In this document: one piece after another, positions 776 to 17,973 of the stretch
How positions within the stretch are numbered: position 1 is the first letter of the stretch
Layout: every line of letters begins with the position of its first letter
Source of the DNA: a virus
Lineage: Duplodnaviria; Caudoviricetes
Reading direction: 5' to 3' (one strand)
DNA length: 64,000 bases
Virus record (IMG/VR): IMGVR_UViG_3300033075_000428
Span: 96,001 to 160,000 of that record
Notes under the pieces: generated by a model
Seen by the model: only the letters and a program-made list of their open reading frames with translations
What the model was told of the DNA's origin: nothing
Database searches by the model: none
Translations under genes and position numbers: made by a program

Positions 776-1294
776 ATGAAGAAACTTCTGAGTTTCTGTC
801 TGATGATTGTTGTCGCTACAACGATGGCACTCTCACAAACCCAATCTGATTTCGCAGACTTCTTGCGAGGGGATTGTTCAGCGTTTTTGGTAACAGACTT
901 CGGCCTTACGTTCGAGCGTACTGACCGAATCATCCAAGCAAAGGGACTGTTACTCAAGAACACGTTTATGAAGAAGATTGAAGACTCTGAACGTGGCACC
1001 CTAGAACATAAGGTCGGAGTTTGGGAGAACCTTGATGGTTCCCTAACGATGATTGTGATGTTCGACCAAACAAACGCAAGTTGGTTTGTGACTTTCTCAA
1101 TGAAAGCTCGTTCGGTGAAAGAAGCGAAGAAAATGACGAAGGACGCTCTGGCTATCTTGGAGAAGTCATACCCTGAACCGAAGATTAAGGACATGTTCAC
1201 GAAAGTGTGTGAAACACACATTCTATGCGCTGACCTGAAGGTTGCAGATGACAACGTGATCATGGTTCTCCTCAAGAAGAAATTGGCTGACTAG
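776..1294 (+). CDS. hypothetical exported protein
   Basis: N-terminal signal peptide MKKLLSFCLMIVVATTMALS-Q; TAG stop directly followed by in-frame ATG. Confidence 0.65.
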   Translation: MKKLLSFCLMIVVATTMALSQTQSDFADFLRGDCSAFLVTDFGLTFERTDRIIQAKGLLLKNTFMKKIEDSERGTLEHKVGVWENLDGSLTMIVMFDQTNASWFVTFSMKARSVKEAKKMTKDALAILEKSYPEPKIKDMFTKVCETHILCADLKVADDNVIMVLLKKKLAD

Positions 1295-1756
1295 ATGAAA
1301 GCACCAATCATTATTGACCCGTCAATTCTAGAGAAGATTAAATATGGCCTAGTAACAATGATTACTAGGCCATTATTGGACTCTAACTGTCTTGACATCT
1401 ATTCAGTATTGTGGATCAGACCAGCGTTCAACCACGACAACTATGCTCTGCTCCAGACACGAACAATGGAGAAAGCAAAGCTGAATAATCCATTCGGAGA
1501 AGTGGGTGACGTTATCTTCGTATCATCGAAGACCAAACAAGGGTTTGAGACTATTACTGCAAAAGTAACTGATACATGTTTGGTGAATACATCAACGATA
1601 TCACAACAACAGATACTTGCTTGTGGATTCATCTCAGAGAATGACTTCCAAAAGTACTGGGACAAGACCTACCCCAAGTGTTCTTGGCAGGATAAACCGT
1701 ATGTCTGGTTGGCACAAATCAAGTTTAAAGAAGACCTAATACAGTTTCGTCAGTAA
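1295..1756 (+). CDS. ASCH/PUA-like domain protein
   Basis: TR..., PFGEVGD, 'ISQQQILACGF', 'FQKYWD...WQDKPYVW' pattern of phage ASCH-like proteins. Confidence 0.55.
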   Translation: MKAPIIIDPSILEKIKYGLVTMITRPLLDSNCLDIYSVLWIRPAFNHDNYALLQTRTMEKAKLNNPFGEVGDVIFVSSKTKQGFETITAKVTDTCLVNTSTISQQQILACGFISENDFQKYWDKTYPKCSWQDKPYVWLAQIKFKEDLIQFRQ

Positions 1757-6320: not shown

Positions 6321-6347
6321 ACGAGGCAACGGAAAACAAAAATTGAG

Positions 6348-6765
6348 TGGACGTGGGGGGAGTCGAACCCCCGTCCGAACATCGGTCTATCTCATGGAAT
6401 TACAATCATCGGTCTCAGTTAGTAAGTACTATCATCATTACGTCGAGACCTTCATGATGACGCCCGTCAGTTTGATCATGTCCTACACACGAGCAGTACG
6501 GATTCAACTCCTGTGTAGTAAGTTCATAATGGAGCCTTGACTCCTGCGACACGATGTTCAACTACCTATGAACTAATGCTGACATCGTGGTATCAAACAG
6601 CCTGAGCGTATTGATACTGGGGAACATTAGCCTCTGGGTAGAGGTTAATGACCTTAGCTTGCTTGTTGCCAGTTATGGCTTGTCCAGTTGTATTTACATG
6701 CTCCACCAGACTAGCATGGATTGCCACTTCGACTTCTCTTTGCCCGTCGAAACCTTTACACGCCC
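6348..6765 (-). ncRNA. ssrA: tmRNA; tag ORF 6670..6593 encodes (A)GNKQAKVINLYPEANVPQYQYAQAV*
   Basis: 5' GGGCGTGTAAAGGTTTCGACGGG; 3' GACGGGGGTTCGACTCCCCCCACGTCCA; acceptor stem with G3-U70 Ala determinant; ATAACT resume signal. Confidence 0.93.
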
Positions 6766-9541: not shown

Positions 9542-9883
9542 TTACTCAGCCCAACGAGTTGGTTCAATCCGTTGGACTAAACTTACTGCAAGGCGAAAAG
9601 AGCTCATCTGTGTTTCCTCACAGAAGCATGCGGTAGCAGTGAGCTGATTGTCTAAGTCAGGCTCATTGAAGAACGCAACGCTATTGCCACTATCATGCAA
9701 TTGTGTCGTAGCCAGCATGAGCTTGTTTTCCGTCTTCACATCCAGAAAGACAATCGTCTCATTGTTCCACTCACGAAACTCTTCTGGAAATTTCAGAGCG
9801 TAACTTGCCAATGCGTGTGCTCCTTGAACATATCGATAATGATGCGGAAGGTCTCGACGAATCAAGACATACATCTTTTTCAT
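9542..9883 (-). CDS. peptidyl-tRNA hydrolase 2 (Pth2)-like
   Basis: KMYVLIRRDL, QGAHA, IVFL, EPDL...TATA; start at 9883 overlaps upstream stop (ATGA). Confidence 0.8.
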   Translation of the reverse strand: MKKMYVLIRRDLPHHYRYVQGAHALASYALKFPEEFREWNNETIVFLDVKTENKLMLATTQLHDSGNSVAFFNEPDLDNQLTATACFCEETQMSSFRLAVSLVQRIEPTRWAE

Positions 9884-10488
9884 TTCGATTCGTCTGCTGT
9901 GTTTTCCACCACAAGGTCTTCCCGACGAATGTTCGTATTGTGAGGAAATACGTAATTCGGGTGAGACAGGAGCCAATGCGCGAATGCTTCACCACGAGCT
10001 TCTTTCCACAACGCATCCTGTTCTTCTCGTGTTGGAACAACAATTGGAGTTGGGTCACCAAACTCAAGTGAGTCATGAATAGTTATGACAACTTTCCACT
10101 GTTGCGGGGTCAACCGATTTGTGAAGTTCGGTACTTCAACTTTGTGGTATGGTGTTCCACTACGAAGTGAATACGCCAAGTTGAAAATACGGAAAGCAGT
10201 ACAGCAGCTGTAATGCGCATTCTCGATAGCGAAGTACTCTCTGTTCATCTCACTATATGTACTGAGAGGAATAGGATTAGCAAGTGTACCGTCTTCCTTA
10301 GTGATTCCAGCAACTTGACGAAGTGCTTCGTACACTGAGTTGATTTCAAGAAGCTTGTCAAGCCTCTCTCCTGGAAGCTCAACAGATTCAAAATACATCT
10401 TCAATGCATTTTTCGTGTTGTTCTCTCTGTTCAATCGAATGAATCTCGTAAGGAACTTGATTACATTCTTTGCTTGTTCTCTCGTCAT
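9880..10488 (-). CDS. hypothetical protein coupled to Pth2
   Basis: 202-aa ORF; R..NLAYSLRSG.PY.KVE motif; stop overlaps Pth2 start. Confidence 0.7.
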   Translation of the reverse strand: MTREQAKNVIKFLTRFIRLNRENNTKNALKMYFESVELPGERLDKLLEINSVYEALRQVAGITKEDGTLANPIPLSTYSEMNREYFAIENAHYSCCTAFRIFNLAYSLRSGTPYHKVEVPNFTNRLTPQQWKVVITIHDSLEFGDPTPIVVPTREEQDALWKEARGEAFAHWLLSHPNYVFPHNTNIRREDLVVENTADESK

Positions 10489-10515
10489 GATTGTACCCTT
10501 TGGGTGTGTTGAAAA

Positions 10516-10590
10516 TTAAACAGTTTCAAAGACATTACCAACATGCCCCAATGGAGGGTCACGAGTTGAGTTCTATGTGAAGAAGTTCAT
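10516..10590 (-). other. leader mini-ORF MNFFT(amber)NSTRDPPLGHVGNVFETV
   Basis: GAGGA RBS 4 nt before ATG at 10590; TAG at 10575-10573; frame open to TAA at 10518-10516. Confidence 0.5.
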
Positions 10591-10618
10591 GTGTTCCTCA
10601 TTGTGAAAATTGAACGTG

Positions 10619-10691
10619 TTCCCTGTGCTGGAATTGAACCAGCGCGGTCATGAATTTAGAGTTCACCGCTCTACCACTGAGCTAACAGGGA
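10619..10691 (-). tRNA. amber suppressor tRNA (anticodon CUA)
   Basis: cloverleaf: acceptor TCCCTGT/ACAGGGA, D arm GCTC-AGTGGTA-GAGC, anticodon arm GTGAA-CTCTAAA-TTCAT, T arm GCTGG-TTCAATT-CCAGC; CCA not encoded. Confidence 0.9.
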
Positions 10692-10695
10692 ATAT

Positions 10696-10734
10696 AAAAA
10701 GCCCAACGTGCTTCGTGGAAGAGAACGTTGGGCT
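10696..10734 (-). terminator. terminator/attenuator directly upstream of suppressor tRNA
   Basis: AGCCCAACGT/ACGTTGGGCT stem followed by U-tract, a few nt before tRNA 5' end. Confidence 0.65.
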
Positions 10735-17541: not shown

Positions 17542-17973
17542 CTACTTGACAGTTCCTATTGTCACCCCGACAACAATGCCTAAACCAGCACCAACGAGAC
17601 CGCCAACAATACCCCACAGAACAGGAGACTGCCAGAACGTTGGCTTATTTAGCTCTGCTAACTTTTGGTAATTCAGTTCATTGACCTTGTAAAGTTCAAT
17701 CTGTTGAGACTGCTTTACAATGATTGAATCGTTAAGACGCACAAGTGATTGAAGGTCGTTAACTTGTGAACGGTAGAGAGCTAGCAATGTATCACGTACG
17801 AGCACTTTTGCTTCTAGAAGCTTGATGCCATTTGTGAGCCCAAGCACTTCCTGTTTCGTGAAATAGTAATATTTCGTTGTGTCAGCAGAAGCAGGAACGG
17901 TGGCGAACCCTGCGACTTGTGCAGAGCAAGTTACTGACAACGCTGAGAAGAGAACTAAGAGGATTGTTTTCAC
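17542..17973 (-). CDS. exported coiled-coil protein with C-terminal TM (spanin-like)
   Basis: signal peptide ending SA-Q, coiled coil, Gly-rich C-terminal TM. Confidence 0.55.
   Translation of the reverse strand: MKTILLVLFSALSVTCSAQVAGFATVPASADTTKYYYFTKQEVLGLTNGIKLLEAKVLVRDTLLALYRSQVNDLQSLVRLNDSIIVKQSQQIELYKVNELNYQKLAELNKPTFWQSPVLWGIVGGLVGAGLGIVVGVTIGTVK

What the first reader, a model, noticed from the sequence alone, without database searches (positions are those of the whole stretch)
9542..10691. Amber-readthrough sensor: suppressor tRNA, MNFFT(amber)..RDPP leader, unknown gene and Pth2
Seen: 29 nt after the CUA-anticodon tRNA is a mini-ORF with a GAGGA RBS, MNFFT-TAG. Its readthrough frame continues NSTRDPPLGHVGNVFETV-TAA and ends 27 nt before a 202-aa gene that is ATGA-coupled to a Pth2-like hydrolase. 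Established: R-A/G-P-P type motifs are ribosome-arrest sequences and diprolines stall ribosomes; Pth recycles dropped-off peptidyl-tRNA; very short minigenes promote drop-off. Inference: the leader reports on amber suppression or RF1 shortage. Only a ribosome reading through UAG reaches RDPP and stalls, switching expression of the downstream rescue genes.
Basis: partly seen in the sequence, partly recalled or inferred. Interest (0 to 1): 0.85.

Follow-up and report, generated by a model that had tools for sequence, protein, structure and literature searches.

The report
Amber-readthrough-gated stalling leader in phage
A large phage with the normal genetic code has, right after its own UAG-reading tRNA, a tiny leader gene whose ribosome-stalling Arg-Asp-Pro-Pro motif is reached only if that UAG is read through. 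The same design recurs in about 30 other phage loci, with the leader's stop codon always matching the tRNA, so it looks like a natural, apparently unpublished sensor of stop-codon suppression.

Summary
On the minus strand lie tRNA(CUA), a GAGGA ribosome-binding site, a leader reading MNFFT-UAG-NSTRDPP...-UAA, a 202-aa gene, and a Pth2-fold gene that overlaps it by ATGA.

- **Recurrence.** About 30 distinct phage or metagenome loci carry a leader with an early suppressible stop followed in frame by R/K-x-P-(P or stop), just upstream of homologues of the same gene pair.
- **Peptide-level selection.** Arg and Pro codons vary synonymously between loci.
- **Fixed position.** The motif mostly sits 61-70 nt before the next start codon. 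The RNA just after it usually pairs with that gene's ribosome-binding site and AUG.
- **Stop matches tRNA.** Leaders use UAG where the neighbouring tRNA is CUA (25 loci). They use UAA, with a different terminator, where it is UUA (2 independent loci). There are no mismatches.
- **Absent without a suppressor.** Twelve loci without a suppressor tRNA nearby have no such leader.

This pattern occurs once in the phage's 380 kb (both strands). RDPP is a published arrest-permissive RAPP variant.

Not shown: stalling itself, and what the two proteins do. The Pth2 catalytic motif has diverged and the 202-aa protein has no known fold. I found no publication. This scan has already noted the same design in at least 42 other genomes.

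The parts
10696..10734 (-). Terminator-like hairpin (stem 10734-10725 / 10709-10700) plus U-run, ending 5 nt before the tRNA
   Evidence: -20.3 kcal/mol, z -4.9. Sequence read. The scan missed it because the loop is longer than 8 nt.
10619..10691 (-). Amber suppressor tRNA, anticodon CUA, class I, discriminator A, no encoded CCA
   Evidence: ARAGORN, cta. (Rfam RF00005, 63.8 bits).
10595..10599 (-). Ribosome-binding site GAGGA of the leader, 4 nt before its ATG
   Evidence: read directly.
10516..10590 (-). Leader ORF: MNFFT-UAG-NSTRDPPLGHVGNVFETV-UAA
   Evidence: Unique hit of the leader pattern in the genome.
10573..10575 (-). In-frame UAG (codon 6), followed by A
   Evidence: A homologous early stop is present in all related leaders.
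10552..10563 (-). CGT GAC CCT CCA = R-D-P-P, the putative arrest core (Pro codon CCT in the P site, CCA in the A site)
   Evidence: RDPP reported as arrest-permissive in PMC12992588. The motif is kept with synonymous codons in relatives.
10547..10564 (-). 5' strand of the masking helix (UCGUGACCCU and UUGGG); it overlaps the R-D-P codons
   Evidence: minimum-free-energy structure; duplex -15.2 kcal/mol, reached by 0.9% of local control windows.
10485..10504 (-). 3' strand of the masking helix: CCCAA-AGGG (ribosome-binding site of the 202-aa gene) and UCAUGA (its start codon)
9880..10488 (-). 202-aa protein of unknown family. Its conserved core (about residues 85-155) is shared with the 97-139-aa proteins that occupy this position in related loci.
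   Evidence: alignment A3. No Pfam, PHROG, PDB or fold match.
9542..9883 (-). 113-aa Pth2-fold protein, translationally coupled to the 202-aa gene by an ATGA overlap
   Evidence: PDB 2zv3, E 1.8e-5; pLDDT 88; TM 0.72 to archaeal and human Pth2.

Best explanation
The leader is a cis-acting translational switch that reports whether the phage's amber suppressor tRNA is working.

OFF state. Ribosomes start at the leader AUG and are released by RF1 at UAG (codon 6). The R-D-P codons and the following UUGGG stay paired with the ribosome-binding site (AGGG) and the AUG of the 202-aa gene. That gene and the ATGA-coupled Pth2-like gene are therefore poorly translated.

ON state. Charged tRNA(CUA) decodes the UAG. 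The ribosome goes on six codons to R-D-P-P and stalls in the manner of RAPP-type arrest peptides, with peptidyl-tRNA(Pro) in the P site and Pro-tRNA in the A site. Its footprint holds the 5' strand of the helix open, so the ribosome-binding site and AUG about 66 nt downstream become available.

Shown here: the anatomy, its conservation, the match between leader stop codon and tRNA anticodon, and the predicted pairing. Inferred: the stall itself, the direction of regulation, and the role of the products. I take the products to be a peptidyl-tRNA-hydrolase-type enzyme and a partner that deal with peptidyl-tRNA or stalled ribosomes produced when stop codons are suppressed.
For: 1. Anatomy in the window.

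2. Specificity: the leader pattern occurs once in 380,706 nt of the phage's own genome (shuffles give 0.4). It occurs 10 times in 153,916 nt of related loci, always in front of the operon.

3. Conservation across very divergent loci. The Pth2-like proteins are 30-54% identical and the unknown proteins about 20%. Examples of leaders:
- L004 MTY*VNRARSPP...
- L010 ML*SFLNKTRAP*
- L015 MIWT*ARAPP*
- L030 MRY*GRDPP...
- L037 MY*IRPP*
- L038 ML*NPRGP*
- L060 MTAFYFP*IRDPPF*
- L055 MT*GFDKQRAPP...
- a two-stop subfamily such as L031 ML*ISGFT*IQVFKPP*
.

4. Peptide-level selection: Arg is encoded by CGT, CGA, CGG, AGA and AGG, and Pro by all four CCN codons.

5. System-level covariation:
- 25 distinct TAG leaders lie within about 2.5 kb of a tRNA(CUA).
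- Two independent TAA leaders lie next to a tRNA(UUA): L039 MT[TAA]ITSGFT[TAA]ILPWLLKPP[TGA] and L061 MLHFW[TAA]IYNRGPP... Both end in a stop other than TAA.
- L039 also has an in-frame TAA in its Pth2-like gene, at the site where other lineages have an in-frame TAG.
- There are no mismatches.
- 12 Pth2-like loci without a suppressor tRNA on the stretch have no leader, even with a relaxed pattern.
.

6. Position: the distance from the arrest P site to the next ATG is 52-78 nt, mostly 61-70, whether or not the leader ORF continues past the motif.

7. Masking of the ribosome-binding site:
- Minimum-free-energy folds pair the segment after the motif with the ribosome-binding site and AUG.
- Duplex energies beat at least 99% of local control windows in 8 of 11 loci.
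- Modelling a ribosome at the arrest site raises the unpaired probability of the ribosome-binding site and AUG from a mean of 0.33-0.34 to 0.49. A ribosome at the stop codon does not (Wilcoxon p 0.006-0.008).

8. Published work: RAPP and RGPP arrest ribosomes. RDPP and RSPP are partly permissive and are depleted from proteomes (PMC12992588; PMC10951233).
Against: - No experiment exists. Stalling on a 12-residue nascent chain with RDPP, which is only partly permissive in ApdA and ApdP, is not assured.
- In the window itself the RNA evidence is modest. The hairpin has z -1.58 and the whole leader z -0.70. The modelled opening is only 0.35 to 0.47, and a ribosome at the UAG already gives 0.44.
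- Four of 12 loci show no modelled opening.
- Some leaders lack the second Pro or the Arg: L042 KPL-stop, L047 RSPS, and the KPP subfamily.
- In L069 the leader is fused in frame to the unknown protein, so unmasking of a ribosome-binding site cannot be the whole story there.
- The Pth2-like proteins lack the D-A-G-x-T stretch of archaeal Pth2, so hydrolase activity is unproven.
Confidence: 0.8

Rival explanations
1. Readthrough-coupled translation without a true arrest. Any ribosome that passes the UAG simply translates through the masking helix and, in this window, terminates 27 nt before the next ATG. That opens the helix or allows re-initiation. R-x-P-P would only slow the ribosome.
For: - In the window, L004, L030 and L035 the leader runs on over the pairing region and ends 9-28 nt before the next start.
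- RDPP and RSPP are only partly permissive for arrest.
- Modelled opening by a stalled ribosome is small in the window.
Against: - In most loci the leader ends at the motif itself, 58-72 nt before the next start. That is too far for re-initiation.
- The motif is conserved at the peptide level, not the RNA level.
- Its distance to the next ATG is constant whether or not the ORF continues.
Confidence: 0.12
2. Transcriptional attenuation of the tna type. Early release at UAG leaves naked leader RNA on which Rho terminates. A ribosome that reads through and stalls blocks Rho, so the operon is transcribed. In many relatives the operon includes the suppressor tRNA downstream.
For: - An engineered TAG in the tna leader makes downstream transcription depend on suppression (Liu et al. 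2011, as described in PMC6412442).
- In at least 15 relatives the tRNA(CUA) lies downstream of the operon. This would give positive feedback.
Against: - Specific pairing of the post-motif segment with the ribosome-binding site and AUG is significant in most loci.
- The spacer is only about 60 nt and AT-rich, with no evident C-rich Rho loading site.
- In this window the tRNA is upstream, not downstream.
- This mechanism could act alongside the translational switch.
Confidence: 0.1
3. The leader senses the host's release-factor-1 level or activity rather than the phage tRNA.
For: Readthrough at UAG depends on the tRNA/RF1 ratio, so low RF1 would also switch it on. This follows from established knowledge of termination competition.
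Against: - UAA-type leaders, whose stop is read by both RF1 and RF2, occur exactly where the neighbouring tRNA has anticodon UUA.
- Leaders are absent from loci without a suppressor tRNA nearby.
- A suppressor tRNA lies within about 2.5 kb in every locus long enough to show one.
Confidence: 0.06
4. A chance mini-ORF in a tRNA-gene spacer, with no function.
For: Short ORFs are common. The fold of the window's leader is not significant on its own.
Against: One hit in 380 kb of the phage's own genome against about 30 homologous leaders elsewhere, plus stop-anticodon covariation.
Confidence: 0.01

Closest known systems
RAPP/RGPP-type regulatory arrest peptides (ApdA, ApdP, ApcA; SecM with RAGP; Streptomyces RAPP/RGPP upstream ORFs). 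PMC7897499, PMC10951233, PMC10987492, PMC12992588.
   Same: - A short upstream ORF ending in, or containing, R-(A/G/D/S)-P-P.
- The arrest is expected with the third residue in the P site and Pro in the A site.
- A downstream gene in the same direction whose ribosome-binding site is masked by RNA that the stalled ribosome would open.
   Different: - The known examples are secreted or membrane 'monitoring substrates', released by Sec/YidC pulling. Their input is protein-export activity.
- Here the nascent chain is only 6-30 residues and has no signal sequence.
- The motif is placed behind an in-frame stop codon, so the input is stop-codon suppression.
- The output genes are a Pth2-fold protein and an unknown protein.
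- The element is phage-borne.
Engineered amber-gated leader switches (TAG placed in the tna leader; Liu, Qi, Yanofsky and Arkin 2011, reviewed in PMC6412442)
   Same: Expression of downstream genes requires a suppressor tRNA to read a UAG inside a leader peptide that ends in a stalling sequence.
   Different: - That device is synthetic.
- It acts through Rho-dependent transcription termination.
- It uses TnaC and tryptophan.
- The element here is natural, apparently acts on translation, and is matched to a phage tRNA.
prfB (RF2) autoregulatory in-frame UGA (recalled from textbook knowledge, not tested here)
   Same: An early in-frame stop codon acts as a sensor of the competition between termination and an alternative decoding event.
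   Different: prfB uses a +1 frameshift, senses the release factor that it encodes, and has no arrest peptide and no suppressor tRNA.
PepNL of E. coli (PMC11890864)
   Same: A very short nascent peptide stalls the ribosome, and stop-codon readthrough by a tRNA changes the outcome.
   Different: The logic is reversed. In PepNL readthrough of UGA by Trp-tRNA prevents the stall. Here readthrough is needed to reach the stall.
Code-change modules of stop-codon-recoded phages (Borges et al., bioRxiv 10.1101/2021.08.26.457843)
   Same: Phage-borne suppressor tRNAs. Some relatives of this module are in TAG-recoded phages, whose Pth2-like genes carry an in-frame TAG.
   Different: - This phage is not recoded.
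- That paper does not contain the words 'leader' or 'hydrolase'.

Membership tests
RAPP-like ribosome arrest peptides | Core motif R-(A/G, partly D/S)-P-P near the end of a small upstream ORF | tested here: met
   RDPP at 10552-10563. RDPP and RSPP are reported as partly permissive and depleted from proteomes (PMC12992588). Relatives carry RAPP, RGPP, RSPP, RDPP, RPP, RAP-stop and KPP.
RAPP-like ribosome arrest peptides | Demonstrated elongation arrest with Pro-tRNA in the A site (toeprint, peptidyl-tRNA accumulation) | not testable with these tools
   Needs in vitro translation with the suppressor tRNA.
RAPP-like ribosome arrest peptides | Downstream gene in the same direction whose ribosome-binding site is masked by RNA that the stalled ribosome opens | tested here: met
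   - In silico only.
- Window helix 10547-10564 / 10485-10504: duplex -15.2 kcal/mol, reached by 0.9% of control windows; the fold itself has z of only -1.58.
- Across 12 loci, modelled opening at the arrest site has p 0.006-0.008.
RAPP-like ribosome arrest peptides | N-terminal signal or membrane segment, so that the export machinery releases the arrest (monitoring substrate) | tested here: not met
   The nascent chain at the motif is 12 residues (MNFFT-x-NSTRDP) with no hydrophobic segment. It therefore works like these peptides but is not a Sec/YidC monitor.
Pth2 peptidyl-tRNA hydrolase (PF01981) | Pfam gathering score | tested here: not met
   18.9 bits against a cut-off of 23.
Pth2 peptidyl-tRNA hydrolase (PF01981) | Profile-level homology and fold | tested here: met
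   - The family profile hits PDB 2zv3 at E 1.8e-5.
- The AlphaFold model has pLDDT 88.1.
- Foldseek matches archaeal and human Pth2 at TM 0.70-0.74, probability 1.00.
Pth2 peptidyl-tRNA hydrolase (PF01981) | Conservation of the catalytic stretch (D-A-G-x-T region and the G-K loop; residue roles recalled from memory) | tested here: inconclusive
   - In the HMM alignment the phage family has an invariant E-P-D where 2zv3 has D-A-G-H-T.
- It also has a 2-residue deletion in the G-K-G-K loop.
- Invariant in the family: R9, Q20, H23, W39, N41, E74, P75, D76, T82.
Amber suppressor tRNA | Canonical cloverleaf with anticodon CUA | tested here: met
Amber suppressor tRNA | Aminoacylation and amino-acid identity | not testable with these tools
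   - The tRNAs of the related loci are too diverse to assign an identity.
- In-frame TAGs in the Pth2-like genes align with E, D or G in other members.
Stop-codon-recoded (code 15) phage | Many genes interrupted by in-frame TAG; low coding density under the standard code | tested here: not met
   - Under the standard code, 196 minus-strand ORFs of at least 120 aa cover 156 kb of 190 kb.
- TAG ends 12 of those 196.
- Candidate TAG-joined ORFs are antisense or adjacent genes.

The most novel reading that the evidence does not exclude
The leader is a natural sensor of genetic-code state, and it is also a 'monitoring substrate' for its own output. The unknown protein and the Pth2-fold protein would resolve the short peptidyl-tRNA on the stalled leader ribosome, and on similar stalls caused by suppression. 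That would reset the switch and hold the side effects of stop-codon suppression in balance. The in-frame TAG or TAA inside the Pth2-like gene in some lineages would be a second lock in the same loop. Such a module would explain why standard-code phages keep 'orphan' suppressor tRNAs, and how code switching can be staged safely.
Probability: 0.25. Interest if true: 0.95.

Novelty: new variant of a known kind. Interest (0 to 1): 0.86.

Why it matters
- **A target for orphan suppressor tRNAs.** Suppressor tRNAs in phages that use the standard code have had no known target. This gives them a conserved one.
- **A new input for arrest peptides.** RAPP-type stalling peptides are known so far as monitors of protein export. 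Here the input is decoding of a stop codon.
- **A new protein pair tied to suppression.** A Pth2-fold enzyme and an unknown partner are linked to both amber and ochre suppression. This bears on how phages evolve and stage stop-codon recoding.
- **A natural counterpart of an engineered device.** Synthetic biologists built amber-gated leader switches. This compact natural part could serve as a reporter of suppressor efficiency.
- **Testable.** Everything here can be checked with simple reporter fusions and toeprinting.

Tried and rejected
- **GenBank phages.** blastn of the region found only generic tRNA similarity.
- **First protein searches.** Single-protein pattern scans of IMG/VR found nothing. 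The word-index search found only the 202-aa protein itself. The full HMMER scan gave two distant relatives, which opened the comparison.
- **Leader RNA fold alone.** Not significant for the whole leader (z -0.70). The promoter scan found nothing on the coding strand.
- **The 202-aa protein.** No Pfam, PHROG, PDB-profile, Atlas or VIA-align match that stands above noise. The model's pLDDT is only 66. The best PDB-profile row, an RqcH/FbpA-type protein at E 0.55, is not significant.
- **Is this phage recoded?** Rejected.
No result.
- **Amino-acid identity of the tRNA.** Could not be assigned from the alignment.
- **A conserved third gene in the operon.** None. The next genes differ between loci: Ogg-HhH, AdoMet decarboxylase, unknowns.
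- **Nearest relative of the 202-aa protein (L001-L003).** It has no Pth2-like gene, no suppressor tRNA and no leader on the DNA available.
Full report
**What is in the window**

The window is bases 96001-160000 of a single 190,353-bp contig with 44% G+C. Nearly all genes are on the minus strand. The surrounding genes are those of a large lytic phage: RIIA, DNA polymerase, UvsX-like recombinase, helicases and thymidylate synthase.

The minus strand reads, in order:
- a strong terminator-like hairpin (10700-10734, -20.3 kcal/mol, z -4.9) followed by a U-run;
- a canonical tRNA with anticodon CUA (10619-10691; Rfam 63.8 bits);
- 28 nt further on, GAGGA and the ATG at 10590;
- the frame M-N-F-F-T, then UAG (10575-10573), then N-S-T-R-D-P-P-L-G-H-V-G-N-V-F-E-T-V, then UAA (10518-10516);
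- 27 nt later, the ATG (10488) of a 202-aa ORF;
- an ATGA overlap at 9883 with a 113-aa ORF.

**The phage is not recoded**

Under the standard code, 196 minus-strand ORFs of at least 120 aa cover 156 kb. TAG ends 12 of them. Candidate ORF pairs joined by a TAG turned out to be antisense frames or adjacent genes. Apart from ordinary TAG stop codons, the leader is the only evident target of the suppressor tRNA in this genome.

**Finding relatives**

GenBank phages and single-protein scans gave nothing. A full HMMER scan found two distant relatives of the 202-aa protein.

- One relative (P0003, loci L004-L009) sits in the same arrangement: tRNA(CUA), then AGGA, then ATG ACA TAC TAG ... CGA GCG AGG TCA CCT CCA ... 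TAA (MTY*VNRARSPP...). A 131-aa homologue follows, overlapped by a 99-aa homologue of the 113-aa protein.
- The other relative (P0002, L001-L003) has no suppressor tRNA, no leader and no Pth2-like gene on the DNA available.

Alignment-based scans with the 113-aa family then brought in about 60 more loci.

**The leader is conserved as a peptide**

A leader with a ribosome-binding site lies upstream of the homologous gene pair in about 30 distinct loci. It has 1-8 sense codons, an in-frame suppressible stop, and then R/K-x-P-(P or stop). Examples:
- ML*SFLNKTRAP*
- MIWT*ARAPP*
- MRY*GRDPP...
- MY*IRPP*
- ML*NPRGP*
- MTAFYFP*IRDPPF*
- MT*GFDKQRAPP...
- MR*NKEYG*LIRGPP*
- a subfamily with two stops, such as ML*ISGFT*IQVFKPP* and MM*ITSGFT*...FRPP*

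Arg is encoded by CGT, CGA, CGG, AGA and AGG, and Pro by all four CCN codons. The constraint is therefore on the peptide, not on an RNA word.

The pattern occurs once in both strands of the phage's own genome. Shuffles give 0.4. It occurs ten times in 154 kb of non-redundant related DNA, always in front of the operon.

Eleven of 12 first UAGs are followed by a purine. From memory (Bossi 1983; Miller and Albertini 1983), that context favours amber suppression.

**The stop codon follows the tRNA**

In every locus long enough to show it, a suppressor tRNA lies within about 2.5 kb.

- 25 distinct TAG leaders go with tRNA(CUA).
- Two independent loci have tRNA(UUA), and their leaders use TAA as the internal stop and a different stop as terminator.
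  - L039 carries the whole ochre module on one 1.3-kb contig. Its leader is MT[TAA]ITSGFT[TAA]ILPWLLKPP[TGA]. The unknown protein follows, then a Pth2-like gene with an in-frame TAA at codon 34, then tRNA(UUA).
  - L061/L062 have MLHFW[TAA]IYNRGPP..., ended by TAG.
- In several amber lineages the Pth2-like gene has an in-frame TAG at that same codon.
- Twelve Pth2-like loci without a suppressor tRNA on the stretch have no such leader, even with a relaxed pattern.

I saw no mismatch. This is the strongest argument that the element reads out suppressor activity rather than, say, the RF1 level.

**How the stall could switch the genes**

The distance from the putative P-site Pro codon to the next ATG is 52-78 nt, mostly 61-70. 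This holds whether the leader ends at the motif or runs on.

Minimum-free-energy folds pair the 10-15 nt at or just after the motif with the ribosome-binding site and often the AUG of the next gene. L010, for example, pairs GUGAUUAUACUC with GAGUAUAGUCAU. In the window, UCGUGACCCU and UUGGG pair with CCCAA-AGGG and UCAUGA.

- Duplex energies beat at least 99% of local control windows in 8 of 11 loci. The window's duplex is -15.2 kcal/mol, reached by 0.9% of controls.
- I modelled a ribosome footprint of -12 to +15 nt. Placed at the arrest site, it raises the mean unpaired probability of the ribosome-binding site and AUG from 0.33 to 0.49. Placed at the stop codon, it gives 0.34 (Wilcoxon p 0.006-0.008).

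The window itself is a weak case. Its modelled opening goes from 0.35 to 0.47, a ribosome at the UAG already gives 0.44, and the hairpin has z -1.58. Four loci show no modelled opening.

**Link to known arrest peptides**

RAPP and RGPP cores stall ribosomes with the third residue in the P site and Pro in the A site. They tolerate varied and short N-terminal parts and are refractory to EF-P. RDPP and RSPP are partly permissive substitutions in ApdA and ApdP, and are among the tetrapeptides most depleted from bacterial proteomes (PMC12992588; PMC10951233 and PMC7897499).

The window's RDPP and L004's RSPP are therefore plausible, if weaker, arrest cores. The known family members are export monitors with signal sequences. 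This leader has none, so it works like them without being one of them.

**The output genes**

The 113-aa family gives a profile hit to archaeal Pth2 (PDB 2zv3, E 1.8e-5). Its model is confident (pLDDT 88) and matches Pth2 structures at TM 0.70-0.74.

The D-A-G-x-T stretch is replaced by an invariant E-P-D, and the G-K loop is shortened. Hydrolase activity is therefore likely but not assured.

The 202-aa protein shares only a helical core of about 70 residues with the 97-139-aa proteins at this position elsewhere. It has no detectable family or fold. The third gene of the operon is not conserved.

Phage tmRNA genes lie close to the module in the window, L001, L004 and L033. That fits a cluster of translation-repair genes.

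**Rival mechanisms**

- Plain readthrough coupling without arrest fits the long leaders. It does not fit the majority, which end at the motif about 60 nt from the next start.
- A Rho-dependent, tna-like mechanism has a synthetic precedent. It could act in addition, especially where the tRNA lies downstream of the operon.
- An RF1 sensor is disfavoured by the ochre loci.

**Novelty**

Full-text searches found no description of a natural leader gated by a suppressor tRNA, or of this Pth2-like module. The main survey of phage recoding contains neither 'leader' nor 'hydrolase'.

The closest published items are the RAPP arrest peptides, the engineered amber-gated tna leader, and PepNL, where readthrough prevents the stall rather than enabling it.

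This scan's own notebook shows that other agents reached the same reading on at least 42 other genomes. Those are unchecked AI notes and I did not count them as evidence. Everything above was derived here.

Noticed in passing
window 6345-6765 (-): Phage-encoded tmRNA (Rfam 100.4 bits) with tag GNKQAKVINLYPEANVPQYQYAQAV, which ends in AQAV rather than the usual ALAA. tmRNA genes also lie near the module in L001, L004 and L033.
   Followed up: partly
window 10696-10734 (-): A strong terminator-like hairpin plus U-run ends only 5 nt before the suppressor tRNA. No promoter-like site was found between them, so how the tRNA and leader are transcribed is open.
   Followed up: partly
window 776-1294 and 1295-1756 (+): Two plus-strand ORFs (172 and 153 aa) lie in the same frame, separated only by TAG followed directly by ATG. 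Amber suppression would fuse them.
   Followed up: no
window 17542-17973 (-): This gene ends in a tandem TAG TAA. Other TAG-terminated genes in the window would gain 20-49 residues on readthrough.
   Followed up: no
L004 6692-8075: A 1.4-kb stretch after the Pth2-like gene has no ORF under the standard code or with TAG read as sense. It lies upstream of an HNH-like gene and may be a structured RNA or an intron.
   Followed up: no
L033 2388-2550 and L040 1-165: A GC-rich segment of about 160 nt, conserved between the two loci, lies between the 3' end of a tmRNA and the leader. It may be an unannotated RNA.
   Followed up: no
L069 1944-2483: The leader (MNHFY-TAG-LNRSRGPP...) is fused in frame to the unknown protein. 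Here the TAG and the RGPP motif are inside the protein-coding gene itself.
   Followed up: partly
L010, L011, L019-L025, L028/L029 (TAG); L027/L039 (TAA): The Pth2-like gene carries an in-frame suppressible stop at one conserved codon (after E-H-T or E-Y-P). This is a second lock that matches the local suppressor type.
   Followed up: yes
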